Assembly: GCA_015233405.1 (NCBI GenBank)
Contig: JADFXT010000001.1
Location: 169,386 to 233,385, forward strand
Length of the DNA stretch: 64,000 nucleotides
Origin: Candidatus Omnitrophota bacterium
Lineage (GTDB): Bacteria; Omnitrophota; Gorgyraeia; Zapsychrales; Zapsychraceae
Direction: 5' to 3'
The stretch's first letter is position 1, and each line of letters opens with the position of its first letter. A program made the position numbers and the translations under genes. The notes below the pieces were generated by a model that was not told the origin of the DNA, ran no database searches, and saw nothing but the letters and a program-made list of their open reading frames with translations. Below, in pieces: positions 16,976 through 54,080 of the stretch.

Positions 16976-17647
16976 ATGAGAATTCTTATTGTCGAGGATG
17001 AACAAAAGGTCGCGGATTTTATCAAGCGGGGTTTAAAAGAAGAAGGATATGCCGTCGATGTGGCGTATGACGGAGAGCAAGGGCATTTTCTTGCGACAAC
17101 AAATGATCATGACCTGATTATTCTCGATGTCATGCTTCCTGAAATTGACGGGATCACTTTGTGCCAGAGGCTCCGCAAAGAAAAAGTGCTCATTCCTATT
17201 TTGATGTTAACGGCCAGAGATGCGGTCTTAGATAAAGTCAAAGGGCTTGATTCGGGCGCGAATGATTATCTGACAAAGCCGTTTGCCTTTGCTGAACTGT
17301 TGGCAAGAATCCGTTCTCTGCTGCGGCATGCCGAAAACCATCAGGCGATAAATTTGCAGGTCGGGGATTTGACGCTCGATGTCGTGACCCATAAAGCGTC
17401 GAGGGCCGGACAACCAATCGAGCTTACCTTAAAGGAATATGCTTTGTTGGAATATCTGATGCGTAATGCCGGCACTATTGTCACCCGAACTATGATTTCC
17501 GAACACGTATGGGACATTCATTTTGACACCTTCACCAATGTGATTGACGTGTACATCAATTATTTACGCCGCAAGATCGACCAGGGATTTAAAAAGAAGC
17601 TTCTTCATACCGTCCGCGGCCGGGGATATATTTTAAAGGAGGGATAG
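16976..17647 (+). CDS. OmpR-family response regulator (CusR/CopR-like)
   Basis: MRILIVEDE start, receiver Asp (LDVMLP), and a winged-helix C-terminus (...TVRGRGYIL). Confidence 0.9.
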   Translation: MRILIVEDEQKVADFIKRGLKEEGYAVDVAYDGEQGHFLATTNDHDLIILDVMLPEIDGITLCQRLRKEKVLIPILMLTARDAVLDKVKGLDSGANDYLTKPFAFAELLARIRSLLRHAENHQAINLQVGDLTLDVVTHKASRAGQPIELTLKEYALLEYLMRNAGTIVTRTMISEHVWDIHFDTFTNVIDVYINYLRRKIDQGFKKKLLHTVRGRGYILKEG

Positions 17648-19119
17648 TGGTTCATTTAACGATACGCGCGCGTATTATTTTTTGGTTTGGGCTTATCATC
17701 ACGGCTATTCTTTGCGCATTTAGCGTTTTGGTTTATTTTAATTTCCAGACAGCTCTTTTGGCGAATACGGATGACTTCTTGGAATTGAAAGCGGAAGGGG
17801 TCCTGGATTATATTGACGCCTATTGGGTTGCTCAGAACCGTAAAGGGCTTGAGAACAGCAGGGAAACAGCGTCTTTTATTAAAACGAACAGCCGTAATTT
17901 TGTTAAGATCGCTCAAAATCGTGTGGGCGAAATCCCGGTCGATCCTGCCTTGACGGACATTTCCCTTAGCATTTTCTCGACGGAAGGACAGCTTCTGGCT
18001 TCTTCTGACAGTGTTGCCAAAAATAAATGGCTTTCCCCTCAAGCGCTGAAGGCTGTTTTAAAAGGAAAAAGTTTTTTTGACCCTCTCGTCGGGAATCTAT
18101 CCCGACAACCTCAAGCATCGAGACGCATTATTACGGTCCCGGTCGTGGAAGGCAACACGATTATTTGCATTTTACAATTAGCAAAGCCGTTAACGGATGC
18201 ACAAAGAACGTTAAATCAACTTAAGATTAAATTGGCGATGTTTTTACCCGTATCTATTTTATTGGTGGTTGTTGCGGCGTGGTTATTGGCCAGTCTTATT
18301 TTACATCCGCTGAAGAGTATTATTCATACCGTCCGTCATATTACGGCCGATAAATTGTCTTCCCGCGTTCCTTTATTCACGACAAAAGATGAAATCCGCG
18401 ATCTGTCCGAGACTTTTAATGATATGCTCGAGAAGCTCGAGAAGGCGTTTTTAATGCAAGAACGAATTGTCCAGGATGTTTCGCATGAACTAAGGACCCC
18501 ATTGACCATTTTAAAAGGGGAGATGGAGGTCGCGCTTAAAAAGGCGCGATCACCGGAAGAATATCAGGCAACACTCACAAGCGGACTTGAAGAGATCAAC
18601 AAGATCAATCATATGGTCGAAAACCTGCTTCTTTTGGCCCGTTTTGACAGCCATCAATCTGGGTTGGTTTTGAAAGAGATTGATTTTGAAAGTTTTGTCC
18701 AAGGGATCATCGATGACATGAGCCTTTTTGCCAAGCAGAAGAGTATTGTCATTCATACTGACTTGACCAAGGATGTTTTTATCCGTGCGGATGAGCAGCA
18801 TCTCTATCGCGCTTTAATTAATATTTTAGACAATGCCGTTAAATATACGCCCCAAGGAGGAAATATTTTTGTAACTCTGAAGAAAACTCCGGACATGACC
18901 GTGCTTGGCGTGGCGGATACGGGAATCGGCATTGACCCCAATCGCCTTCCTTTTATCTTTGACCGGTTCTACCGGGCAGATACCTCGCGTTCTAGTCGAG
19001 GATTTGGCTTGGGATTAAGTATCGCTAAAACTATTATTGATGCCCACGATGGTAAAATAGAAGTCACAAGCCTTCTGAAGCGGGGAACATCATTCCTTGT
19101 ATCTTTTCCGCTTGCCTAG
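17647..19119 (+). CDS. HAMP-domain sensor histidine kinase
   Basis: Two TM segments, a HAMP domain, H-box SHELRTPL, N-box DNAVKYT, and G-boxes DTGIGI / GFGLGLSI. Confidence 0.9.
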   Translation: MVHLTIRARIIFWFGLIITAILCAFSVLVYFNFQTALLANTDDFLELKAEGVLDYIDAYWVAQNRKGLENSRETASFIKTNSRNFVKIAQNRVGEIPVDPALTDISLSIFSTEGQLLASSDSVAKNKWLSPQALKAVLKGKSFFDPLVGNLSRQPQASRRIITVPVVEGNTIICILQLAKPLTDAQRTLNQLKIKLAMFLPVSILLVVVAAWLLASLILHPLKSIIHTVRHITADKLSSRVPLFTTKDEIRDLSETFNDMLEKLEKAFLMQERIVQDVSHELRTPLTILKGEMEVALKKARSPEEYQATLTSGLEEINKINHMVENLLLLARFDSHQSGLVLKEIDFESFVQGIIDDMSLFAKQKSIVIHTDLTKDVFIRADEQHLYRALINILDNAVKYTPQGGNIFVTLKKTPDMTVLGVADTGIGIDPNRLPFIFDRFYRADTSRSSRGFGLGLSIAKTIIDAHDGKIEVTSLLKRGTSFLVSFPLA

Positions 19120-24997: not shown

Positions 24998-25090
24998 TGA
25001 ACCGAAACGGCAAACCCATCGTAAGGTGGGGACGCAAAGTTAGAGGGTCCTGGAATAGGATAGCCTGACTACCGAAAGCGCTAGAATATT
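24998..25090 (+). promoter_or_regulatory. c-di-GMP-I (GEMM-I) riboswitch-like aptamer
   Basis: ACGGCAAACC-CAUC-GUAA-GGUG-GGGACGCAAAG... matches the conserved GGCAAACC / GNRA hairpin / GGGACGCAAAG blocks of GEMM-I, for example Vc2. Confidence 0.72.
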
Positions 25091-25093
25091 TAA

Positions 25094-25132
25094 GCCTATT
25101 CCTAATGATGCACGGGAGTAGGCGTTTTTTTT
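25094..25132 (+). terminator. riboswitch expression-platform terminator
   Basis: GCCTATTCCT (25094-25103) pairs with GGGAGTAGGC (25114-25123), followed by G and T8. CCTATTCC can alternatively pair with GGAATAGG (25052-25059). Confidence 0.6.
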
Positions 25133-25172
25133 GGGATGCTTATGAAGTAAAAGCGATATGAAGAATGTTTTT

Positions 25173-25249
25173 GTCATCCCCGCAATTTTTAGGCGGGGAT
25201 CCACAAGGGTTGAATATATGGATTCCCGACAGAGGCTTTCGGGAATGAC
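25173..25249. repeat. GC-rich hairpin-pair element, copy 2 (in the 5' leader of the giant ORF)
   Basis: GTCATCCCCGCAATTTTTAGGCGGGGATCCAC ... TGGATTCCCGACAGAGGCTTTCGGGAATGAC. Confidence 0.8.
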
Positions 25250-25304
25250 AGCAGTGAAAAAGGAATTACCAGTAGTTTTAGGACGAAAAAAGGGGGCAAT
25301 AAGG

Positions 25305-28300
25305 ATGTTTAGGGGGCAAGGCACAACAAGAAGTAACATACTAAAGACTATTAGTCTTATAGTCCTCTTTATTTTTATTCCTCAGACTTTATTCGCCCAA
25401 ATCTCTTTATCCAATCTTCCAACGCCTGGAACCATGGTCGCAACCAGTGCTTCATTTGTCCCACCGGTGTTAAAAGGGATGAAGGTCGATCTCAAGCAGC
25501 CGTTTCAATTTGATTTTATCCTCGATACCGGAAACTCCAATCTTAAAGATGATGAGCTTAAAGAAGAATCGAATAAACTTATTCGTTATTTTCTCTCGTC
25601 CTTGACCATTCCGGAAAAAGATTTATGGGTCAACTTGTCTCCGTATGAGAAAAATAGGATCATTCCCGACGAGTTTGGCACCACGGAAATGGGCCGCGAC
25701 TTATTGGCGCAGGATTATATCCTTAAACAGATAACGGCTTCGCTTATGTATCCGGAGAATGAAACCGGCAAGGCGTTTTGGCAGAAGGTTTATAAGAAAG
25801 CGTATGACCTTTATGGGACGACCGATATCCCGACGGATACATTTAATAAAGTGTGGATCGTTCCTGATAAAGCTGTTGTTTATGAGAACCCGTCACCTAA
25901 GCCTGGCGAGGCAACGGTGTTTGTGGTCGAGGCGAGGCTGAAGGTGATGTTGGAGGAGGATTATTTTGCGACATCGAATACTGTAGGGGCGGGGTTTCCC
26001 CGCCCTGAGGATAAAGGGCGCGGGAACCGCGCCCCTACGGCAATAATCAAAGAGGTCATTATTCCTATTTTGGAAAAAGAAGTCAATGAGGGCCAGAACT
26101 TCGCCCAACTACGTCAGGTGTATTATTCGCTCATTCTTGCCAAGTGGTACAAGGACAGCCTGAAGGAAAGTATTCTAAACCGTAAATATTCCGGCCAGAA
26201 AAAGGTCATGGGCGTCGACCTGGCTGGCAAAGAAGATAAACAAAAGATCTACGAGCAATATCTCGCGGCGTTTAAGAAAGGCGCATTCAATTACATCAAA
26301 GAAGAATACGATGCCAATTCCAAAACGCTGATCCCTCGTAAATATTTTTCCGGCGGGGCGAATATGGGGAAAGTTCCCTTGGCAAAGACCGGCGATTTGG
26401 CGATGACGTCTAGGAATCAAACTGGGAAATTGTTGGAGGTTGCCGGGAGGCTTATTGATCCGCAGAAGATCGTCGAGAAAGAGACTAGGGATGTCCGCGC
26501 CTTGATGACGGAAGAAGAAAAACAATATTTCCAAAAGGTTTTTCCTGCCCTCAATTTAGAAAAAGCCCTGGAAGTCCCCCCGATAGAAACGGTCCGAAAT
26601 GCTGAAGAATTGAAAAGGAAAAGGACCGATGCCAGAGCCAAAAATTGGGAGAATTATTTAAAGAACCAAAAGGATTTACGAACGGATATCTTGCTTTTAT
26701 TGGCTGATATCAAAAACGGGACGATTTTTACACAACGAGATTTTATAGACCGGTTGGCAGGTCTTAATAAGATTTTATTAACAGGCAAAGATGGCAAAAC
26801 TTTTTATCTTGCACCCACCTTGTCCTCTTTTATGTCCGTAAAAAAACTGCATGCCGATGAGTCCAATCGGCAGAACCAGACACTTTCTGAGCTCGCAGGC
26901 GAATACAGGAGCACCTCAACCAAATACGGCGCGCTCTTAGTAAAATTATTTAGAGAGATTAAAAATTTTACGGAATTAAAGAAAGATTCCAATACCCTTG
27001 ATGTCCTGAAACAGATTGCTTCGATCTATGAAATCGCCATGGAACAATTTTTATTTGTGAGCGGGAACAATTCCTTATTTATGAATATGGCAAACGGCTT
27101 ACTACGGCTTTATGGCTTCGACGGAATCGCCCATTATCAACTTGATATGAAGCTCACCGCCCGTATTTTTGGTAAATCCATTAAGAGGGATTTTATAAAG
27201 CTGGTTTTAAAGGCGAACCCACAGATGTCTTTGCCTGCCCATTGGAAATCGCAGGTATCATCTCGCAAACAAACAATGAAAGAAATTATAGAGGAAAATC
27301 AGCGTTTCGATCGTGCAATGACGGTCAAGAATGATGCGCGCCAGGATTCCACAAAATTGTACAAAAGAATTTCAAGCAGGATACCTATTGTATTACGTCG
27401 TGGTGCGGTTGCTGTTGGATTATTAGGGTTAGCTCTTTTACCTCTAAGCGATAATTTTCAGATGAGAGATCTTCCTCCTGCAAATCTTGCCAAGATTGCG
27501 CTTCAAGGCAATAAGGAAGCTTTGGATATTCTCAAAAATCTTGCGGATGATCAAGGCAATGCTTCCGCCCAAAAAGCTATAGAAACTCTTCCTATTAAAA
27601 CACTGGCGGACCTGACTGCTCAAGGGAATATAACCGCCTTTAGGATTCTCTTAAATCGGATGCGAATGAACAATCTCGTCGCACAGAATGCCTTAAAAAC
27701 TCTGCGCGTTGATTTGCTTGTTCAGCGTTTAAATAAAGGGGACCGAGACGCTTTCTTTCTTCTGCTCGATCTGGGTCAGGATGCTAATAACCTTAATGCT
27801 CAAGAAGCTTTCAACAATATTCAACCGCAGAAACTTGCTGAACTCATTTCCAGAGATGGAAATGTAGGTGCGACAGACATTCTTGAGAATCTTGCTTTAT
27901 GGAAAGATGACACTGGCATTGTGGAAATTTTAAGAACAGTTAAAGTCCAAAAGCTTGCCGAACAGGCCTATCAGGGAAAGAGGGATGCTTTTGATGTTAT
28001 CGCATATCTTTATCAAAAGTATAACAACGTTTCTGCTAAAAACGTTTTAAGTCTATTCCCCGTGCAGAGGATCGTTAAATCTGTTGTTCAGGGGAATATG
28101 GACGCCTATCTTATGTTGGAAAGTCTTAGTGCTTTTAAGAACCTCGGCACGAGAGAGATTTTAAGAAATCTTAATGTCCAACAACTCACCGAACGTGCCT
28201 ATCAGGGGAATAAAGATGCCATAAATATTCTCATCATGTTGGATAAAGACAATCAGAATCCCGCTGCCCAAAAGGCGCTCAAGGATATGGCTGTCCAACT

Positions 28301-31300
28301 TATCTCAAAAGATAAGAAGATCTTTTCCTCTCAAATAAGAAGTCTTATTCCTTATTGCGATTTAAATACCTTGATGGATTTGTTGTTGATCGATAAGTCC
28401 TCGATCAAAGATCCTGAATCTTTTCGCCCAGCTTTATATTATCAGATCGCGGATAGAATTTTATCTGAACTGCAAGCTAATCCGAATCTCGTCGGCAAAG
28501 AAGCCCAATGGGCAAAGTTTAGGAGTAATTATAAAAAAGCTATTGCTGGCATGGAAGGCATAGAACAATATTCTCCCCAAGTGATGGACATCGTCTATAA
28601 GAGCATCGATTTGATGGGGACTGAAAAATTGGCGGCTGTTAGTAAAGAAGTGGAGAATGAATTTCATGTCCCTCCGATGAGAATGCTTTTTTATAATTCT
28701 ATGCCTCGAGCGGTTACCTGGCTTGTCGATGCCTATCAAGAAGTAACCCAGGCAAGTCCGAATAATAAACTTGATTTTAATTTCTTTTATGCCACGGCGC
28801 TTGTGGAAGGTTGGCCTTTAGTTGGGCGGACCGTGATGGAGGGTGCTCAATATTTGGATGTTACAACTACTCAGCCTATGGGGTTAGACAGATTCCCGAG
28901 CGTTATGGATAAGTTGATAAAGGAAAAGAAATTACCAGGAGGAGAAAATTTTAGAAAAAGAATCAATCTTTATAATCACCGCTATCACGGAAGATATCAA
29001 TATGGACAATTTAGAGATGTGACAAGCGCCCTTGATGCTCTTGGCGCGATGATCCTGGAAGATGAGGAGTATTTCCGGCAAGAATTGACCGCAAGAGGTA
29101 TAAATCCAAGTGGTGTGAATGTAGATGCCTTTAGGGTCGGGACCTATCTTCATTTCTGTACGCCTGGGGATCTTTTTAAACAGTACTTTGAAAAATATGC
29201 TCACAACCAAGAAACCGGACGTTATGATCCTCAAGGACTTATCGGCAAAAGAGGAAAAGGTAAAGGAAAACCTGAAGGGCAAGGCGAATTCGGTAATGGT
29301 ATTTACAACGCTCAGTACCTTGGTGCCACAGCTAAGCTGCTAGATTTGTTGTTCCCTCAGATGAACGTTTTACTTAAAACGTCCACCGTCAAACCATCAG
29401 CGAAACAAGAGAATCGTCAGACGTCGCGGTTGCCTTCTTCCGTACAAAATCCAAATAAAGTTTTTTATGAAGCCATTCATAAAAGAAAAGCGGATTTAAA
29501 TGTTGCTTTAAGAAAAGTTTTTGCGGCCAGCGGAGATGTTTTGATTGGACGGTTTACCGGCGGACGGATTTTTAATGAACAAGAAAAAGCCCGCGCCGAA
29601 GCTGCGAATAAAGCGGTCAATATCATTATGGCGGAACAGGCGCATTTGACAAGCTTGTTAAATCGTGCGCTGGATCATTTTGTCGGGAGGAATACAGAGG
29701 CAATACAAAAGCAGAAAGAGGAACTATTTTTTAATAATGTGGCTCGTCTTGTTTCACAACAAAATGGCAGCGCGGACGCGGCGATGACGGTCAGATTTAT
29801 CCGGCCCATCTTGCCGATAGTTTTCTCTGGTTTAATTGCTCTTTTGTCCAATTGTTCACCCGTCTATTTGAACGAAAATCCGATCAATCCTATTCCCACA
29901 TCTGTCGGCGAGCAATCTCCGCAGGAAAGGATTAATTCTTTAGTCCAGGTTGTTCTTAATACTTCAAACACTGTAGATGAACGCGTTAAAGCGTTTGATT
30001 CTTTAAAAAGCCTAAGGGCTGTTGATGCGTTAATTCAGTTATCGATGAGCGAAAAAGCGACTGTCAGCGCACCGGCAACTTACCGGTTGGCGGATCTCAA
30101 CGACTCGACGGCATTTGACAAGGTGCTCAAGATATTTATCAATGGAAAATCGCAGGAGCGGGATAAGACAATTTTTGTTTTAAGCGTGCTTAGCGATAAT
30201 TTGGAGAGAGGACATCCCTATAAATATCTTTTTACATGCCTTCGCGATAGAAGCGATGAACTTGAAAATAAAACATTGTCAGCCCAGGACATGTATTTAG
30301 TTTACAGCAACCACGAGTTTCAACGTTTGACGAATGGGATGGAAGAGAATGATCAATTTAGTGTAGCGCGGGGAATAGAAAATATCCTTGTTCGTTTTCA
30401 TAAGAATATTAACGACCAGAATATTACACTCGCTGCTCCTGATATGGTCGAGGCGTGGCAGACCGAAGGCCATAATTTGGCGCTCGATGGGAACACACAA
30501 GTGATCGCCAGTTTTCACAAAGAGTTCGATAGCGAAAAAGTGAGTTTCGTTGAGCTCATGCGTCCATTCGGCATTATTCTTAAGGAGAATTCGCCGCAAT
30601 TCAGATTATTCTCAGGAAGCAATAATCCTTTCACGCTTTATAAGACGAGAAAAGGCCTTTGGCAAGCGATAGAGAATTCCAAAGGCCAGACATTGTTATT
30701 CTTTGAGCATCATGGCGACGGATTGCATCTCGCTTCTTCAAGTTATCCTACCTTTGGTATGGGGATGTTAAGTTATGACAAATTAGCCAGGAGTTTAAGC
30801 CAACGGGCACGGAAAACCGGAGGAGATCTTTCGAAAGTTACGATTGTTATTAATGCGTGTTATTCGTCGGATTATTCGTTGGAGACGCTCAATGCGCTCT
30901 ACGATGATATCGCTAAACTTTCTCGTGTTCTTATGAATGATAAAGAAATCACAGGTTTCCCGACGATCGTAACTTCCACCAACAGAGGCATGTCAGGTTT
31001 CTCAACGTTAATGAGCATGCAAAAAGTTTTCGCGGGGAAACAAGAAATCCATGTGTCGGATTTTTATGATATCGCACGAGAAATGGCGGGACGGCATCAA
31101 TCCATGGGATTCTTTTTAAATATCCCTCGAGAAAAATTGGAACAATTAAGAAAGAAACTTGGAGCTCCGGATAAAAATGTTAATTATAAAAGCGGCGAAC
31201 AACTGAATCCAAATTTACCGATGTTAAATGCCCAATTATCTCCTAAGACATTCAATGATATTGCTCGTCAGGTTAGTCAAACCGGCAATCCAACTTTTGC

Positions 31301-33701
31301 TGTTGTCATGCCTGGACGCTCCGATGCGGCGATGATGACGGGCGGACAAGCCAAAAAATTCCAGGAATTTTTAGATGAATTATTTCAAAGAGAGAAAGAC
31401 CCGGACAAGGAACTTCTTAAAGCGGTTGTCTCCGGAGCAAAACCCGCGGAATTGGTAGGATATCCTAATTTAAATGCCTATGCATTGAACCTTTATAAGG
31501 AAATGCATAATGCGTTCGGTCTTGATTTTGTGATATCGCAAGAAAGAAATAATATATTGATTTATAACGTCGACGCTTTGAAAAATCGTTTAGTGGCAGC
31601 ACAATATTTATTAAATGATATTAAAGGCGGTGAAACGATTTCTGAGGAAATGCTTGAGACAGACTTGCATGATTTTCTGCAATCGACCTTAGACACGTTT
31701 AAGAGTGACCCTTCCGCTTATCACAAGGTCATCGGCATAGCGGTCGGATATCCGTTATCTAAAGTTTGGGGGTTTGACCCAAATCGTAGCATCACTAGCG
31801 TCGGTCTTCCCATGGCCAGTCAATATGCAGCGGGCGTAAGCGATAAATATGGCAAGGAATTTTTAAAGTGGTTAAAAGGCGGAGCATTGGACTTTCCTAT
31901 TAATGGTAAGGAAGATATTGTTTATTTTGAAGACCAGGCTGGCCATGTTTTTGATTTAGCTGTGATGCCACAGCATTCCCGCGTCGTCGTGGAAAAGGTC
32001 ATGGATGAGCCTATCGAATTTGATTTTGGCAACACCAAAGAGTCGACGATGGCGATAAAATTCAGAATGAAGTTTATCAATAATGAAACAGGCGACACTG
32101 TTGAGGAAAAAACAGTGTATTCCCGGGAAGATAAAACGGTTGTCACTTTAGATGATCAGGGCAAAGAGCTGTCGAGACGTACGACGAGTAATGATAATCA
32201 CAAAGTCAGGGTTGAGAATATTACACCAAGAGTTGTTAACCGCGCGGAGGAATATTTAGATTCGGTTTATGAGATTTTCAAACAAATTAGAAAATTCGAC
32301 TCTCTCGCCGGTGACAAGGCGATGATGAGCAAACCTACTGTCAAGACGATGAAAGGCACTTACGGCGGAGAATGGAAGCTTACCAATACAAATACAACCG
32401 AACTTTTGCCTTTGGAGCAGCGTCAGAAAATCAAGAAGGTCGTCTGGACTTTTTCGGGACGCCGCCTTTCTCGGCCATTGTTAGCAAATGCCATGCTGAT
32501 CCCTCAAATAGAACAATTATTCCCGAATGCACAAATAAATATTTACTGCAATCCTGAACAATATTTACTTAAGGCCATGGCTTATGGAAAGCGCGTACGT
32601 ATTATTAACAAGCTCGAACGACAACACATTACGCGGGATACTTTGGTCATTAATTCTGATTTTACATTTCATGAGGGAAGGTACCCGCATTCTGCCGGTG
32701 TCCTGTCAATGGTAACTACTAATGACATTATATTTAAGAAAGGGTCTGCAATCGCAGAGTATAATTTTGAAAAAGCATATTATGATCTCAAAGATTCTAA
32801 GCAGGGCCTATATTATCGTAGGGCTGCGGATGCCTTGCGGGCGTTAGGGCTTAAGGAGATCAAAGGCGACGAGCCTGTGGTTTTTGGACCGGATCAATTT
32901 AGCGACGAGCTTAAATCGAAAATAGCGGCGATACGACAGACCTATTTTGTTGGTAAACCGAAAGAATCCCCGGTTATTTTCTTTAATGCCGCGTGGGGGT
33001 CTGGGTTATCCCGTGGCGAAAGAGATATAAAGGATTGGCAACAATTAATCGGCAATGTTTTACAGAATACCGATGCGTACATCGTTATTAATAAAGGAGA
33101 TCCTACTTGGGTGTCCAGTCAACAGGGAAAAATGCCTATGCGGTTCCAAATTGATGACTTATATCAAAATTTACGTAAATGGTATCCGAAGCAAGCTCAT
33201 CGTTTGGTTGAGATACCATCTGAAGGCTTAGGCAAAGATCTTATTCGGCTGATGGCCGTCATGTCGTTGTCGGATGCCGTCATCACCGAAAATTCCGGTG
33301 TGACGCACTTGGCTGATTTTATGAATAAACCATGCGCGTCTTTCTTGAATCCTTGGTTTCTTAAGTATATGACCAAACGTGTTGATATTTTGGATGATGA
33401 TTTGCAAAAGGCGGATTTGCAAATCAAGGATTTCTTAAAGAAACAAAATATCAATTATCAACCAGAATCCGACGCGGCGATGAGTACGACGGCGCCCGGC
33501 GGTATTGATTTTAATCCGGATCGTTTGAAGCTCGAAAAGAAAGGCGTTCACAGCGATTTTGATTTGCCGACGGACGCCGGGGATCTTGATAAAATTCAGA
33601 TCAACGGTTTGGTTCCGGTTATTTTGCACATCACGCCTGTTACTAACTTGCCGGTTCTTTTAGGCGCGAATCAGAATAATGAAACAATAAAGCCGCTCTA
33701 A
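25305..33701 (+). CDS. giant modular secreted/membrane-associated protein (about 2,798 aa from ATG 25305)
   Basis: Uninterrupted 8.4-kb ORF. ATG 25305 has AGGGGG 8-14 nt upstream and yields a signal peptide MFRGQGTTRSNILKTISLIVLFIFIPQTLFAQ. The ORF-track start at 25158 translates the repeat element. Confidence 0.85.
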   Translation: MFRGQGTTRSNILKTISLIVLFIFIPQTLFAQISLSNLPTPGTMVATSASFVPPVLKGMKVDLKQPFQFDFILDTGNSNLKDDELKEESNKLIRYFLSSLTIPEKDLWVNLSPYEKNRIIPDEFGTTEMGRDLLAQDYILKQITASLMYPENETGKAFWQKVYKKAYDLYGTTDIPTDTFNKVWIVPDKAVVYENPSPKPGEATVFVVEARLKVMLEEDYFATSNTVGAGFPRPEDKGRGNRAPTAIIKEVIIPILEKEVNEGQNFAQLRQVYYSLILAKWYKDSLKESILNRKYSGQKKVMGVDLAGKEDKQKIYEQYLAAFKKGAFNYIKEEYDANSKTLIPRKYFSGGANMGKVPLAKTGDLAMTSRNQTGKLLEVAGRLIDPQKIVEKETRDVRALMTEEEKQYFQKVFPALNLEKALEVPPIETVRNAEELKRKRTDARAKNWENYLKNQKDLRTDILLLLADIKNGTIFTQRDFIDRLAGLNKILLTGKDGKTFYLAPTLSSFMSVKKLHADESNRQNQTLSELAGEYRSTSTKYGALLVKLFREIKNFTELKKDSNTLDVLKQIASIYEIAMEQFLFVSGNNSLFMNMANGLLRLYGFDGIAHYQLDMKLTARIFGKSIKRDFIKLVLKANPQMSLPAHWKSQVSSRKQTMKEIIEENQRFDRAMTVKNDARQDSTKLYKRISSRIPIVLRRGAVAVGLLGLALLPLSDNFQMRDLPPANLAKIALQGNKEALDILKNLADDQGNASAQKAIETLPIKTLADLTAQGNITAFRILLNRMRMNNLVAQNALKTLRVDLLVQRLNKGDRDAFFLLLDLGQDANNLNAQEAFNNIQPQKLAELISRDGNVGATDILENLALWKDDTGIVEILRTVKVQKLAEQAYQGKRDAFDVIAYLYQKYNNVSAKNVLSLFPVQRIVKSVVQGNMDAYLMLESLSAFKNLGTREILRNLNVQQLTERAYQGNKDAINILIMLDKDNQNPAAQKALKDMAVQLISKDKKIFSSQIRSLIPYCDLNTLMDLLLIDKSSIKDPESFRPALYYQIADRILSELQANPNLVGKEAQWAKFRSNYKKAIAGMEGIEQYSPQVMDIVYKSIDLMGTEKLAAVSKEVENEFHVPPMRMLFYNSMPRAVTWLVDAYQEVTQASPNNKLDFNFFYATALVEGWPLVGRTVMEGAQYLDVTTTQPMGLDRFPSVMDKLIKEKKLPGGENFRKRINLYNHRYHGRYQYGQFRDVTSALDALGAMILEDEEYFRQELTARGINPSGVNVDAFRVGTYLHFCTPGDLFKQYFEKYAHNQETGRYDPQGLIGKRGKGKGKPEGQGEFGNGIYNAQYLGATAKLLDLLFPQMNVLLKTSTVKPSAKQENRQTSRLPSSVQNPNKVFYEAIHKRKADLNVALRKVFAASGDVLIGRFTGGRIFNEQEKARAEAANKAVNIIMAEQAHLTSLLNRALDHFVGRNTEAIQKQKEELFFNNVARLVSQQNGSADAAMTVRFIRPILPIVFSGLIALLSNCSPVYLNENPINPIPTSVGEQSPQERINSLVQVVLNTSNTVDERVKAFDSLKSLRAVDALIQLSMSEKATVSAPATYRLADLNDSTAFDKVLKIFINGKSQERDKTIFVLSVLSDNLERGHPYKYLFTCLRDRSDELENKTLSAQDMYLVYSNHEFQRLTNGMEENDQFSVARGIENILVRFHKNINDQNITLAAPDMVEAWQTEGHNLALDGNTQVIASFHKEFDSEKVSFVELMRPFGIILKENSPQFRLFSGSNNPFTLYKTRKGLWQAIENSKGQTLLFFEHHGDGLHLASSSYPTFGMGMLSYDKLARSLSQRARKTGGDLSKVTIVINACYSSDYSLETLNALYDDIAKLSRVLMNDKEITGFPTIVTSTNRGMSGFSTLMSMQKVFAGKQEIHVSDFYDIAREMAGRHQSMGFFLNIPREKLEQLRKKLGAPDKNVNYKSGEQLNPNLPMLNAQLSPKTFNDIARQVSQTGNPTFAVVMPGRSDAAMMTGGQAKKFQEFLDELFQREKDPDKELLKAVVSGAKPAELVGYPNLNAYALNLYKEMHNAFGLDFVISQERNNILIYNVDALKNRLVAAQYLLNDIKGGETISEEMLETDLHDFLQSTLDTFKSDPSAYHKVIGIAVGYPLSKVWGFDPNRSITSVGLPMASQYAAGVSDKYGKEFLKWLKGGALDFPINGKEDIVYFEDQAGHVFDLAVMPQHSRVVVEKVMDEPIEFDFGNTKESTMAIKFRMKFINNETGDTVEEKTVYSREDKTVVTLDDQGKELSRRTTSNDNHKVRVENITPRVVNRAEEYLDSVYEIFKQIRKFDSLAGDKAMMSKPTVKTMKGTYGGEWKLTNTNTTELLPLEQRQKIKKVVWTFSGRRLSRPLLANAMLIPQIEQLFPNAQINIYCNPEQYLLKAMAYGKRVRIINKLERQHITRDTLVINSDFTFHEGRYPHSAGVLSMVTTNDIIFKKGSAIAEYNFEKAYYDLKDSKQGLYYRRAADALRALGLKEIKGDEPVVFGPDQFSDELKSKIAAIRQTYFVGKPKESPVIFFNAAWGSGLSRGERDIKDWQQLIGNVLQNTDAYIVINKGDPTWVSSQQGKMPMRFQIDDLYQNLRKWYPKQAHRLVEIPSEGLGKDLIRLMAVMSLSDAVITENSGVTHLADFMNKPCASFLNPWFLKYMTKRVDILDDDLQKADLQIKDFLKKQNINYQPESDAAMSTTAPGGIDFNPDRLKLEKKGVHSDFDLPTDAGDLDKIQINGLVPVILHITPVTNLPVLLGANQNNETIKPL
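25983..26038. repeat. GC-rich compound palindrome embedded in-frame in the giant ORF
   Basis: GTAGGGGCGGGGTTTCCCCGCCCTGAGGATAAAGGGCGCGGGAACCGCGCCCCTAC. The outer ends GTAGGGGCG/CGCCCCTAC are reverse complements, with two inner hairpins. Confidence 0.75.
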
Positions 33702-54005: not shown

Positions 54006-54080
54006 CGGGGAGTAGCGCAGTTGGCTTAGCGCGCAACGTTCGGGACGTTGAGGTCGCGGGTTCAACCCCCGCCTCCCCGA
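54006..54080 (+). tRNA. tRNA-Pro (anticodon CGG), CCA not encoded
   Basis: Cloverleaf read by eye: acceptor CGGGGAG/CTCCCCG, D arm GCGC...GCGC, anticodon arm CAACG-TTCGGGA-CGTTG, and T arm GCGGG-TTCAACC-CCCGC. Confidence 0.85.

What the first reader, a model, noticed from the sequence alone, without database searches (positions are those of the whole stretch)
29784..29873. Signal-peptide or lipoprotein-like segments inside the giant ORF, immediately after junction Mets
After junction 2 the sequence reads MTVRFIRPILPIVFSGLIALLSNCSPVYL. That is a basic n-region, a hydrophobic core, then a lipobox-like LSNC, which is the layout of a bacterial lipoprotein signal peptide. It lies about 1,490 residues into the ORF.

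After junction 1 (27318-27470) the sequence reads MTVKNDARQDSTKLYKRISSRIPIVLRRGAVAVGLLGLALLPLS, which is also signal- or anchor-like.

Modules D, E and F start with Met but have no hydrophobic segment. This pattern is what one would see if independently targeted proteins (secreted, anchored, lipoprotein, cytoplasmic) were fused in frame. Alternatively, they could be translated or processed separately.
Basis: partly seen in the sequence, partly recalled or inferred. Interest (0 to 1): 0.6.

Follow-up and report, generated by a model that had tools for sequence, protein, structure and literature searches.

The report
Targeting signals inside a bacterial polyprotein-like ORF
One 2,847-codon gene of an uncultured Omnitrophota bacterium strings together several complete proteins, some with their own export signals, joined by a short conserved Asp-x-Ala-Met motif; this suggests a bacterial "polyprotein" that is split into separately targeted proteins and points to candidate split sites for this phylum's giant genes.

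Summary

The ORF belongs to a very large, unannotated Omnitrophota family. Members have a conserved signal-peptide-bearing N-terminal "cap", shuffled variable cassettes, and a conserved ~70-aa C-terminal "cap".

- Across 120 relatives, D-x-A-M-[LVTMAI]-[TSAG] is 79-fold enriched.
- The motif bounds cassettes of median 306 aa that are whole proteins, such as adenylate kinase and HPr.
- Hydrophobic signal-like segments are about 4-fold enriched just after junctions. They include Sec-type, lipoprotein-type and canonical twin-arginine (RRxFLK) signals.
- All three hydrophobic segments here have N-in/C-out charge bias, which is incompatible with one alternating polytopic chain.
- Junction AUGs lack Shine-Dalgarno sites and lie in GC-rich, more structured RNA, which argues against internal initiation.

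Best reading (about 0.5): a polyprotein split at the junction motif into independently targeted proteins. Cleavage is inferred, not shown, and no protease was identified. The "lipobox" LSNC fails the canonical -1 rule, so lipoprotein status is unproven. The motif was not found in the literature I searched. A c-di-GMP-I riboswitch with a terminator precedes the gene.

The parts
25000..25077 (+). c-di-GMP-I (GGC variant) riboswitch aptamer in the 5' leader of the giant gene
   Evidence: Rfam RF03167, 60.1 bits (gathering score 59), E = 8.5e-14, full-length model.
25094..25132 (+). Terminator-like hairpin: a 10-bp stem (GCCUAUUCCU...GGGAGUAGGC) followed by U8. Probably the riboswitch expression platform.
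   Evidence: Sequence; MFE fold -19.3 kcal/mol, z = -2.1.
25158..33701 (+). Giant ORF of 2,847 codons from the first ATG. The probable true start is M50 at 25305 (NCBI HQL24_01030, 2,798 aa), which is preceded by AAAAGGGGG.
25305..25400 (+). N-terminal Sec-type signal peptide: MFRGQGTTRSNILKTISLIVLFIFIPQTLFAQ, with the organism-typical xAQ| site.
   Evidence: (near-invariant A31, invariant Q32).
25401..26393 (+). N-cap: a conserved ~340-aa domain shared at 50-60% identity by all 119 listed relatives. No Pfam, NCBIfam, PDB-sequence or fold match.
26394..26405 (+). Junction J0 (D-L-A-M), at the end of the N-cap.
26403..27317 (+). Cassette A2. The same cassette type occurs at other positions in P0012, P0056 and P0043, again flanked by junction motifs.
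27309..27320 (+). Junction J1 (D-R-A-M).
27318..27449 (+). Signal-anchor-like start of module B: a basic n-region (5 K/R) followed by GAVAVGLLGLALLPLS.
27318..29783 (+). Module B (822 aa): helical repeats plus a C-terminal domain (aa 1083-1405) that sits behind a twin-arginine signal in relative P0002.
29775..29786 (+). Junction J2 (D-A-A-M).
29784..29873 (+). The finding itself: the signal-peptide-like start of module C (MTVRFIRPILPIVFSGLIALLSNC...). The lipobox is imperfect.
30498..30983 (+). Putative clan-CD (caspase/metacaspase-like) cysteine-peptidase core of module C. His1852/His1857 (HHGDGLH) and Cys1901 (INACYS) are invariant in the alignment.
   Evidence: Motifs and secondary structure fit; the fold search is not significant.
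31323..31334 (+). Junction J3 (D-A-A-M, then a second Met).
32313..32324 (+). Junction J4 (D-K-A-M, then a second Met).
33471..33482 (+). Junction J5 (D-A-A-M), in front of the C-cap.
33480..33698 (+). C-cap: PGGIDFNP ... GLVPVILHITPVTNLPVLLG, present at the C-terminus of 118 of 120 relatives. No known family.

Best explanation
**What it is.** The ORF is a cassette polyprotein of an Omnitrophota-specific family. A Sec-exported N-terminal cap is followed by a string of complete, formerly independent proteins and then a small C-terminal cap. Each part is separated by the six-residue peptide motif D-x-A-M-(L/V/T/M/A/I)-(T/S/A/G).

**How it most likely works.** The chain is severed at or next to this motif, probably at A|M, by a site-specific endopeptidase acting in the cytoplasm during or soon after translation. 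Each cassette then gets its own N-terminus. Module B inserts as a type-II signal-anchored protein. Module C, a caspase-like peptidase, is exported by its Sec-type and possibly lipoprotein signal. Modules D and E stay cytoplasmic.

**Regulation.** The whole gene is made from one transcript controlled by a 5' c-di-GMP-I riboswitch with a terminator.

**Shown:** the motif, its enrichment, its position at cassette borders, the targeting signals behind it, the topology conflict, and the absence of initiation signals.

**Inferred:** that the chain is actually cut, where, and by what.
For: **Motif enrichment**
- D.AM occurs 6 times against 0.35 expected in the ORF.
- It occurs 343 times against 30 expected in 120 relatives. 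Scrambled controls such as M.AD and A.DM sit near 1x.
- The 6-residue form occurs 211 times against 2.7 expected, a 79-fold enrichment.

**The constraint is on the peptide**
- D and A codons vary (GAT/GAC; all four GCN).
- Conservation spans both sides of Met, at residues whose codons share no bases.
- Met is sometimes replaced by I, L, V or A, for example DKAIIT, DEALLS and DAAALT.

**Cassettes are whole proteins**
- Median spacing between junctions is 306 aa.
- Adenylate kinase in P0032 (aa 1305-1496) has its P-loop about 13 aa from the junction Met. HPr lies inside P0116 aa 1626-1771.
- The same cassette occurs at different positions in different proteins, again flanked by junction motifs.

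**Targeting signals sit right behind junctions**
- 11 of 51 internal hydrophobic segments lie within 45 aa after D.AM, a zone covering 5% of the sequence (p = 3e-5).
- 13 of 417 junctions, against 0.8% of control Mets, are followed by a strongly hydrophobic 11-mer (p = 4e-5).
- Tat examples: P0002 aa 440 and 948 (..DNAM-x12-MDRRDFLKKTGKGSLALALLGLLG), L007 aa 440 (DRAMSSDMGRRQFLSKLG) and L049.
- Lipoprotein-type example: L071 (..LGIVPGCGSGSGSS).
- Sec-type examples: P0011 (..PAVVSAQN) and P0078 (..SILAQE).

**Topology conflict**
- All three segments here are N-in/C-out.
- In L007 the exported N-cap is followed directly by a Tat signal with no intervening TM segment.
- The domain at query aa 1083-1405 sits behind a signal anchor here and behind a Tat signal in P0002, so it appears to be exported in both.

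**Module C relatives**
- Relatives of module C that lack the family caps mostly start with an N-terminal signal peptide or lipobox, for example P0170 LIVGC and P0139 LNAGC.

**No sign of separate expression**
- SD pairing at junction AUGs is -3.2 to +0.3 kcal/mol, equal to other internal Met codons (median -1.7) and weaker than real starts (median -5.4).
- Junctions are GC-rich (0.47-0.70 against 0.42 for the ORF), and the 60-nt MFE is below the ORF median at 6 of 6.
- Promoter-like and terminator-like sites inside the ORF are at chance level.

**Weak hint of avoidance**
- D.AM is 0.5x depleted in 383 ordinary ORFs of the same loci (9 against 17.2 expected, p = 0.024).
Against: - No cleavage has been observed and no protease was identified. 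The N-cap has no invariant His, Ser or Cys and matches no fold. No protease gene recurs next to family genes; only a two-component system does.
- About a third of family members have no D.AM at all, for example the M48+AarF group. The motif is therefore not obligatory for the family.
- No relative was found in which the gene is cleanly split at a junction into two genes.
- Most cassettes have no targeting signal. Internal twin-arginine signals are known in single-chain Sec/Tat dual-pathway membrane proteins (Streptomyces Rieske protein; from my own knowledge), so an internal Tat motif alone does not prove separation.
- A junction-specific excess of G at synonymous third positions around the AUG shows an added RNA-level constraint that simple proteolysis does not explain.
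- I could not run SignalP, LipoP, TatP or DeepTMHMM. The signal calls rest on hydropathy, charge and motif rules.
Confidence: 0.5

Rival explanations
1. The protein stays a single uncut multi-domain membrane protein. The hydrophobic stretches are ordinary TM helices or relics of former signals, and D-x-A-M is a conserved linker, hinge or docking motif between domains.
For: - The published view of Omnitrophota long proteins is of membrane-anchored single chains with roughly one TM helix per several hundred residues (bioRxiv 10.64898/2026.06.07.730766).
- No protease was found.
- Many family members lack the motif yet keep fused domains.
- No split orthologues were found.
Against: - All three segments are N-in/C-out, so they cannot alternate.
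- In L007 a Tat signal directly follows the exported N-cap with no return helix.
- Canonical RRxFLK, lipobox+GS-tether and xAQ sites are well preserved rather than decayed.
- The homologous domain behind a signal anchor here sits behind a Tat signal in P0002.
- Cytoplasmic-type enzymes (Adk, HPr, TIM) would end up outside the cell.
Confidence: 0.27
2. The modules are translated separately from the junction AUGs on one mRNA, like an operon without stop codons. D-x-A is then merely the read-through tail of the upstream product.
For: - Met is near-invariant at the junction, in roughly 90% of functional instances.
- Junction-specific synonymous-site constraint surrounds the AUG.
- Signals behind the junction need a free N-terminus.
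Against: - SD pairing is no better than at random internal Met codons.
- The context is GC-rich and more structured, with G at -1, the opposite of this genome's A/U-rich real starts.
- The motif extends two residues downstream of Met at the amino-acid level and tolerates Ala/Ile/Leu in place of Met.
- In P0002 and L007 the cassette keeps its own Met just before RR, separate from the junction Met.
- Upstream ribosomes would still read through.
Confidence: 0.08
3. Non-proteolytic co-translational chain separation at D-x-A|M: a bacterial 2A-like 'stop-go', or a stop-less termination-reinitiation at the adjacent AUG.
For: - It would explain both the peptide motif and the need for AUG.
- It would also fit the RNA-level G3 signal at the junction.
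Against: - No such mechanism is known in bacteria.
- Only three upstream residues are conserved, far fewer than in viral 2A peptides.
- Non-AUG variants exist.
Confidence: 0.07
4. Artefact or decay: a mis-assembled MAG contig, or a recently fused, degenerating gene cluster with lost stop codons.
For: - The source is a metagenome-assembled genome.
- A few relatives carry frameshifts or in-frame stops (L058, L064, L077).
Against: - More than 2,000 relatives were found in independent assemblies, and more than 585 loci in GTDB species representatives share the same N-cap/cassette/C-cap plan.
- An 8.5-kb frame is open in a genome that uses all three stop codons normally.
- The motif is conserved.
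Confidence: 0.03

Closest known systems
Omnitrophota long or giant 'multi-enzyme' proteins (West-Roberts et al. 2023, bioRxiv 10.1101/2023.11.21.568195; 2026 bioRxiv 10.64898/2026.06.07.730766)
   Same: - Same phylum.
- Many unrelated enzyme domains tiled in one ORF.
- An N-terminal signal peptide plus scattered hydrophobic helices.
- Authors speculate about cleavage into several products.
   Different: [quoted passage not shown] One suppressed internal signal-peptide calls as chunking artefacts.
- Here the proteins are 0.8-5 kaa, with defined N- and C-caps, a defined junction motif, and N-terminal-type Sec, Tat and lipoprotein signals behind it.
Viral polyproteins with internal signal peptides (flavivirus, hepacivirus and bunyavirus glycoprotein precursors; PMC7926653)
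   Same: - One ORF holding several mature proteins.
- Internal signal sequences start downstream units and direct their translocation.
- Short conserved cleavage motifs with a small P1 residue occur in several viral proteases (for example birnavirus VP4 (S/T)-x-A|(S/A)-G; from my own knowledge).
   Different: - This is a cellular bacterial gene with no virus context.
- The motif D-x-A-M has Asp at P3, which does not fit signal peptidase I.
- Tat-type signals are present.
- The protease is unknown and cleavage is unproven.
Cellular tandem precursors cut at internal targeting-like sites (mitochondrial Arg5,6 cleaved by MPP; PMC8734313)
   Same: Two complete enzymes are made as one chain and separated at an internal sequence that resembles an N-terminal targeting signal.
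   Different: - That case is eukaryotic and organellar, with two units and a known peptidase.
- Here there are up to 16 junctions per protein in a bacterium, and a separate motif precedes the signal.
Bacterial lipoprotein signal peptides (Lgt/LspA substrates)
   Same: A basic n-region, a 14-aa hydrophobic core, and Cys 24 residues after the junction Met. The homologous cassette in P0025 also has signal plus Cys.
   Different: - The -1 residue is Asn (LSNC), whereas this genome's clear lipoproteins have LISGC and LSGC.
- The segment is internal unless the chain is cut.
Dual Sec/Tat polytopic proteins with an internal twin-arginine helix (Streptomyces Rieske protein; from my own knowledge)
   Same: An RR motif sits inside a chain whose earlier part uses Sec.
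   Different: There the RR helix follows an even number of Sec-inserted helices, so its n-region is cytoplasmic. In L007 it follows an exported domain with no return helix.

Membership tests
Omnitrophota N-cap / cassette / C-cap protein family (unnamed, no Pfam or NCBIfam model) | N-terminal signal peptide plus a conserved ~340-aa N-cap (WVNLSPYE, TEMGRDLLAQDY, RKYFSGG) | tested here: met
   50-60% identity to all 119 listed relatives over ORF aa ~70-415.
Omnitrophota N-cap / cassette / C-cap protein family (unnamed, no Pfam or NCBIfam model) | C-terminal ~70-aa cap: GGIDxNP ... G(L/F)xPVIxxIxPxxxLPxxLG | tested here: met
Omnitrophota N-cap / cassette / C-cap protein family (unnamed, no Pfam or NCBIfam model) | D-x-A-M junction motif between cassettes (present in about two thirds of members) | tested here: met
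   Six copies at aa 413, 718, 1540, 2056, 2386 and 2772.
Proteolytically processed polyprotein | Short conserved motif at every unit boundary | tested here: met
   79-fold enriched 6-residue motif at cassette borders.
Proteolytically processed polyprotein | Units correspond to complete, independently functional proteins | tested here: met
   Adk and HPr cassettes; median cassette length 306 aa; cap-less relatives of module C exist.
Proteolytically processed polyprotein | A cognate protease, in cis or in trans | tested here: inconclusive
   - The N-cap lacks an invariant His, Ser or Cys and matches no fold.
- Module C is caspase-like but rare in the family.
- No protease neighbour recurs.
Proteolytically processed polyprotein | Demonstrated cleavage products | not testable with these tools
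   Needs proteomics or expression experiments.
Bacterial lipoprotein signal peptide (module C, 29784-29873) | K/R within the first 7 residues and an uncharged hydrophobic core before the Cys | tested here: met
   R4, R7; PILPIVFSGLIALL; Cys24 counted from the junction Met.
Bacterial lipoprotein signal peptide (module C, 29784-29873) | Lipobox [LVI][ASTVI][GAS]C (PROSITE PS51257-type rule; from my own knowledge) | tested here: not met
   LSNC has Asn at -1. Genuine lipoproteins in the window have LISGC and LSGC.
Bacterial lipoprotein signal peptide (module C, 29784-29873) | Location at a free N-terminus | not testable with these tools
   True only if the chain is cut or restarted at J2.
Sec-type signal peptide or signal anchor (modules B and C) | Positive n-region upstream, hydrophobic h-region, N-in/C-out charge bias | tested here: met
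   K/R upstream against downstream: 5 vs 2 (module B) and 2 vs 0 (module C).
Sec-type signal peptide or signal anchor (modules B and C) | Signal peptidase I site (in this genome typically xAQ|) | tested here: not met
   No AxA or xAQ after either h-region. Both may be uncleaved anchors.
Single polytopic membrane protein | Successive TM helices alternate in orientation (positive-inside rule) | tested here: not met
   All three are N-in/C-out. No dedicated predictor was available.
Internal translation start sites (operon-like expression) | Shine-Dalgarno pairing and an A/U-rich, unstructured context | tested here: not met
Clan CD cysteine peptidase (caspase/metacaspase-like), module C | beta-strand-His-Gly and beta-strand-(A/S)-Cys catalytic dyad | tested here: met
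   FFEHHGDG and VINACYS; relatives have GHGG and IDSCHSG; His and Cys are invariant in A3; strands precede both in the model.
Clan CD cysteine peptidase (caspase/metacaspase-like), module C | Significant profile or fold match to C14, C13, C11 or C80 | tested here: inconclusive
   - No Pfam or NCBIfam hit.
- The model has pLDDT 53.
- Foldseek hits to the MARTX CPD, caspase-4 and MALT1 reach only E 0.35-0.6.
c-di-GMP-I riboswitch (Rfam RF03167 variant) | Covariance-model score above the gathering threshold, full length, upstream of a gene on the same strand | tested here: met
   60.1 bits against 59 (marginal), E = 8.5e-14, followed by a terminator hairpin. The ligand of the GGC variant was not verified.

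The most novel reading that the evidence does not exclude
Omnitrophota may run an 'operon in one ORF' system. Complete genes, with their own start Met and their own Sec, Tat or lipoprotein signals, are spliced in frame between universal N- and C-caps. The chain would then be separated co-translationally at D-x-A|M.

The most novel reading is that separation is not by an ordinary protease. Instead a ribosome-level event would release the chain and restart at the adjacent AUG, a bacterial counterpart of viral 2A 'stop-go'. This would account for the near-invariant AUG and for the junction-specific synonymous-site (G3) constraint around it.
Probability: 0.07. Interest if true: 0.95.

Novelty: new variant of a known kind. 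Interest (0 to 1): 0.8.

Why it matters
- **An open question becomes testable.** Giant and long multi-enzyme ORFs are a hallmark of Omnitrophota. Whether they act as single chains or are cut into many proteins is explicitly unresolved, because no cleavage points were known. A short, highly enriched junction motif that bounds whole-protein cassettes, followed by N-terminal-type Sec, Tat and lipoprotein signals, gives concrete candidate cut sites. These can be checked by N-terminomics or by a simple expression construct.
- **It would be a rare case in cells.** If cutting is confirmed, this would be a widespread cellular polyprotein strategy, with thousands of genes and several per genome. That is rare outside viruses. 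It would also change how these proteomes are annotated, in gene counts, localisation and stoichiometry.
- **Possible practical use.** It would provide a natural cleavable linker for multi-protein expression in bacteria.
- **If uncut, still puzzling.** The family would then pose a topology problem for the Sec and Tat pathways.

Tried and rejected
- **Family and structure searches on all modules.** Pfam and NCBIfam gave nothing significant. PDB sequence searches of the N-cap, C-cap and modules B, D and E gave nothing.
- **N-cap structure.** The AF2 model (pLDDT 69) has no Foldseek match in PDB or BFVD. The best hit is a Tupanvirus J-domain protein at E = 0.03, which is not significant.
- **Retropepsin idea for the N-cap.** The string 'FDFIxDTG' resembles a retropepsin motif, but the Thr is not conserved and there is no fold support. 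Rejected.
- **ATGA overlap signal.** All six junctions here read ATGA (a +1-frame TGA). Relatives have ATGC, ATGG or ATGT, so this is not a conserved signal. Rejected.
- **Alternative genetic code or recoded stop.** Neighbouring genes use TAA, TAG and TGA normally. Rejected.
- **Word-index searches.** Searches with module C and module E alone returned nothing, not even the self hit. The exhaustive HMMER search was used for module C instead.
- **Split orthologues.** I looked for genes split at a junction and found only frameshifts or in-frame stops away from junctions.
- **Conserved neighbouring protease.** None was found. Response-regulator and histidine-kinase pairs recur instead.
- **Riboswitch in other loci.** The c-di-GMP riboswitch is not upstream of 20 other family loci.
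- **Encoding-contig look-ups.** P0004 and P0116 were not on record.
- **CaaX-box analogy.** DAAM resembles a CaaX box and M48 cassettes are frequent. The motif is internal, x is not aliphatic, and M48-bearing members mostly lack the motif, so I treat it as coincidence.
Full report
**1. Observation**

Window 25158..33701 (+) is one open frame of 2,847 codons. NCBI annotates it from M50 (25305) as hypothetical protein HQL24_01030 of a Candidatus Omnitrophica MAG.

- Each follows a D-x-A-M tetrapeptide. That tetrapeptide occurs six times in the ORF, at aa 413, 718, 1540, 2056, 2386 and 2772, against 0.35 expected (P = 2e-6).
- A hydropathy scan finds three strongly hydrophobic segments outside the C-terminal cap. 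These are the N-terminal signal peptide (aa 60-80) and the two segments of the finding (aa 742-765 and 1545-1565).
- Both internal segments lie within 50 aa of a junction (p about 0.011).
- The neighbouring genes use all three stop codons and ordinary Shine-Dalgarno sites. The long frame is therefore not a genetic-code effect.

**2. What the ORF is**

None of the six modules matches Pfam or NCBIfam. A search of 5.8 billion proteins returned more than 2,000 relatives, all from Omnitrophota, of 1,500-5,000 aa.

- The shared parts are two ends. The N-cap (ORF aa ~70-415) is 50-60% identical in all 119 listed relatives. The C-cap (aa 2775-2847, PGGIDFNP...GLVPVIxxITPVTNLPxLLG) is present in 118 of 120.
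- The middle is heterogeneous. It includes kinases, M48 peptidases, methyltransferases, adenylate kinase, TIM, PGK, HPr, and HEAT and TPR repeats.
- The middle is also shuffled. Cassette A2 of this ORF recurs at positions 665, 1857, 1957 and 2049 in other proteins.
- A scan of GTDB species representatives gave more than 585 loci, several per genome. ORFs range from 784 to more than 3,700 aa, and nearly all complete ones end in the C-cap.
- Neither cap matches any PDB sequence, NCBIfam model or solved or viral fold.

**3. The junction motif**

- In 120 relatives D.AM occurs 343 times against 30 expected. Permuted controls sit near 1x.
- The extended form D-x-A-M-[LVTMAI]-[TSAG] occurs 211 times against 2.7 expected.
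- Information content is confined to these six positions.
- The constraint is mainly on the peptide. Asp and Ala codons vary, and the two residues after Met are conserved as classes whose codons share no bases. Met is sometimes replaced by Ile, Leu, Val or Ala, for example DKAIIT, DEALLS and DAAALT in front of the C-cap, and DKALLV and DQAILT after the N-cap.
- Junction-to-junction spacing has a median of 306 aa, the size of an average bacterial protein. A minor class of 10-50-aa spacers also exists.
- Cassettes are complete proteins. P0032 aa 1305-1496 is an adenylate kinase with its P-loop 13 residues after the junction Met. P0116 aa 1626-1771 holds a full HPr domain. P0107 aa 406-778 holds all parts of a triosephosphate isomerase in circularly permuted order.
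- The same cassette type is flanked by junction motifs on both sides in unrelated positions of P0012 and P0056.

**4. Targeting signals behind junctions are a family-wide pattern**

- In the 120 relatives, 11 of 51 internal hydrophobic segments lie within 45 aa after D.AM. That zone is 5% of the sequence (p = 3e-5). Their K/R bias is upstream in 7, downstream in 2.
- In 200 non-redundant family proteins, 13 of 417 junctions are followed by a strongly hydrophobic 11-mer, against 0.8% of control Met residues (p = 4e-5).
- The examples are textbook N-terminal signals:
  - Twin-arginine: P0002 aa 440 and 948 (DNAM-TEPGDGDGPAG-MDRRDFLKKTGKGSLALALLGLLGSPGSA), L007 aa 440 (DRAMSSDMGRRQFLSKLGIAIAGVSAGV), and L049 (FDAGM...RRQFLTGLVLAAAYA).
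  - Lipoprotein-type with Gly/Ser tethers: L071 (...ALFVVLGIVPGCGSGSGSS, twice).
  - Sec-type with the organism-typical xAQ| site: P0011 and P0078.
- In P0002 and L007 the cassette keeps its own Met immediately before the RR motif, distinct from the junction Met. The junction motif is therefore an added element, not just a former start codon.
- Module C itself has only 65 relatives among 1.84 billion representative proteins. Those that lack the family caps mostly begin with an N-terminal signal peptide or lipobox, for example P0170 ...LIVGC and P0139 ...LNAGC. The homologous cassette in P0025 also starts with junction, signal and Cys.
- Module C carries His-Gly and Ala-Cys motifs. Relatives have GHGG and IDSCHSG, as in clan-CD (caspase/metacaspase-like) peptidases. 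The model is poor (pLDDT 53), and matches to the MARTX CPD, caspase-4 and MALT1 are not significant.

**5. One chain or several?**

- By the positive-inside rule all three hydrophobic segments of this ORF are N-in/C-out. A single chain cannot do that.
- In L007 the Sec-exported N-cap is followed directly by a Tat signal with no return helix.
- The domain at query aa 1083-1405 sits behind a signal anchor here and behind a Tat signal in P0002. It therefore appears to be extracytoplasmic in both. The alternating single-chain model would place it in the cytoplasm here.
- These conflicts disappear if each cassette acquires its own N-terminus.

**6. How the N-termini could arise**

Internal initiation is disfavoured.
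- SD pairing at junction AUGs (-3.2 to +0.3 kcal/mol) equals that at other internal Met codons (median -1.7). It is weaker than at real starts (median -5.4).
- The 30 nt around junctions are 47-70% GC against 42% for the ORF, and all six fold more stably than the ORF median.
- The base before AUG is G or C in 84% of junctions, whereas real starts in this genome are A/U-rich.
- Promoter-like and terminator-like sites inside the ORF are at chance level.

A six-residue peptide motif spanning both sides of the boundary is what a site-specific endopeptidase would read. Ala at P1 would resemble Ser/Lys-dyad proteases, but Asp at P3 does not fit signal peptidase I (from my own knowledge). I therefore favour proteolytic separation at or next to A|M, in the cytoplasm, early enough to free the exported N-cap from what follows.

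This step is inferred.
- No protease was found. The N-cap has no invariant His, Ser or Cys.
- No protease gene recurs beside family genes. A two-component system does, in 9-12 of 81 loci.
- A third of family members lack the motif altogether.
- D.AM is mildly depleted in ordinary proteins of the same loci (9 against 17.2 expected, p = 0.024). This is a weak hint of avoidance.

**7. Unexplained**

- At 68 strict junctions, third-base G is enriched at the x, Ala and following codons: 0.43, 0.56 and 0.53 against 0.28, 0.29 and 0.30 expected from each ORF's own usage. GCG is 56% against 27% (p down to 3e-6).
- This is not seen around 2,715 other in-frame Met codons.
- The bias is for G and not C, so it is strand-specific and probably acts on the RNA.
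- It may suppress spurious initiation at a conserved in-frame AUG. It also leaves room for an RNA-level or ribosome-level event at the junction.

**8. Regulation**

- An Rfam c-di-GMP-I (GGC variant) riboswitch lies at 25000-25077. It scores 60.1 bits against a gathering score of 59, with E = 8.5e-14.
- It is followed by a 10-bp hairpin plus U8, and then by the gene.
- The whole ORF thus looks like one regulated transcription unit.
- The riboswitch is not found upstream of 20 other family loci.

**9. Comparison with what is known**

- Long and giant multi-enzyme ORFs with many predicted TM helices are described for Omnitrophota. [quoted passage not shown]
- A 2026 preprint suppressed internal signal-peptide calls as chunking artefacts (10.64898/2026.06.07.730766).
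- I found no mention of the N-cap/C-cap family, the D-x-A-M motif, or internal Tat or lipoprotein signals in the searchable literature.
- The nearest functional analogues are viral glycoprotein polyproteins with internal signal peptides (PMC7926653) and the mitochondrial tandem precursor Arg5,6 (PMC8734313).

**10. Verdict**

- The reading 'independently targeted proteins fused in frame' is supported by family-wide evidence.
- The lipoprotein call is unproven, because LSNC fails the -1 rule that this genome's own lipoproteins obey.
- Physical separation of the modules is the best explanation (about 0.5 for proteolysis, and about 0.65 for separation by any route) but remains untested.

Noticed in passing
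window 25000-25132: A c-di-GMP-I (GGC variant, RF03167) riboswitch aptamer, followed by a terminator hairpin plus U8, lies directly upstream of the giant ORF. It scores just above the gathering threshold (60.1 against 59). It was not found upstream of 20 other family loci.
   Followed up: partly
68 junctions in window, L001 and L002-L081 (e.g. window 29775-29792): There is a junction-specific excess of G at synonymous third positions of the three codons flanking the AUG (GCG 56% against 27%). It is absent around other in-frame Met codons and is strand-specific, so probably an RNA-level constraint. The cause is unknown.
   Followed up: partly
P0107 aa 406-778 (relative, not in window): A triosephosphate isomerase cassette appears circularly permuted. 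The Pfam TIM match starts at profile position 51, and the GANWK (beta-1) segment follows the C-terminal end.
   Followed up: partly
P0122, P0123, P0133, P0137 (hits of the module C search): A second, unrelated N-terminal cap (...FAQIAGQLNISG...FRPLHLR) is combined with the same GGID C-cap. The C-cap is therefore shared by more than one family.
   Followed up: no
C-cap of relatives (e.g. P0009 aa 1649, P0053 aa 2489, L001 ORF aa 4693): Many C-caps contain an internal F-x-x-D-P-A-M-L string, so a D-x-A-M-like motif is built into the cap. In this window's C-cap that position has diverged (DLPTDAGDL).
   Followed up: no
window 16976-19119; L036 4516-6919; 9-12 of 81 loci: An OmpR-type response regulator plus histidine kinase pair recurs near family genes. 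It is the only recurrent neighbour found.
   Followed up: partly
L007 ORF aa ~790-960; L049 ORF aa ~560-600: Small cassettes just before the C-cap carry HExxH strings (AHEVAH, AHELAH). M48 peptidase domains are common in the family (15 of 120), but mostly in members that lack D-x-A-M.
   Followed up: no
383 ordinary ORFs in window and loci: D.AM is about 2-fold depleted in non-family proteins of the same loci (9 observed, 17.2 expected, p = 0.024). This could reflect avoidance of a cleavage motif.
   Followed up: partly
N-cap, window ~25500-25530 (FDFILDTG): This retropepsin-like string (hydrophobic-hydrophobic-D-T-G) lies in a beta-hairpin of the N-cap. The Thr is not conserved among relatives, and no fold match supports a protease.
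   Followed up: yes
L058 (in-frame stop after aa 404), L064 and L077 (frameshifts): A few family genes in MAGs are interrupted away from junctions. These could be assembly errors, pseudogenes or recoding; I did not resolve which.
   Followed up: no
window 54006-54080; L005 1328-1489: The window holds a tRNA-Pro(CGG). L005 has a cobalamin riboswitch 3 kb upstream of its N-cap gene, probably serving another gene.
   Followed up: no
window 25158-25304: The frame is open for 49 codons upstream of the annotated start and contains 'SGMTAVKK', which resembles the post-junction 'AMTVKN/AMTVRF'. The SD-like AAAAGGGGG supports M50 as the real start.
   Followed up: partly
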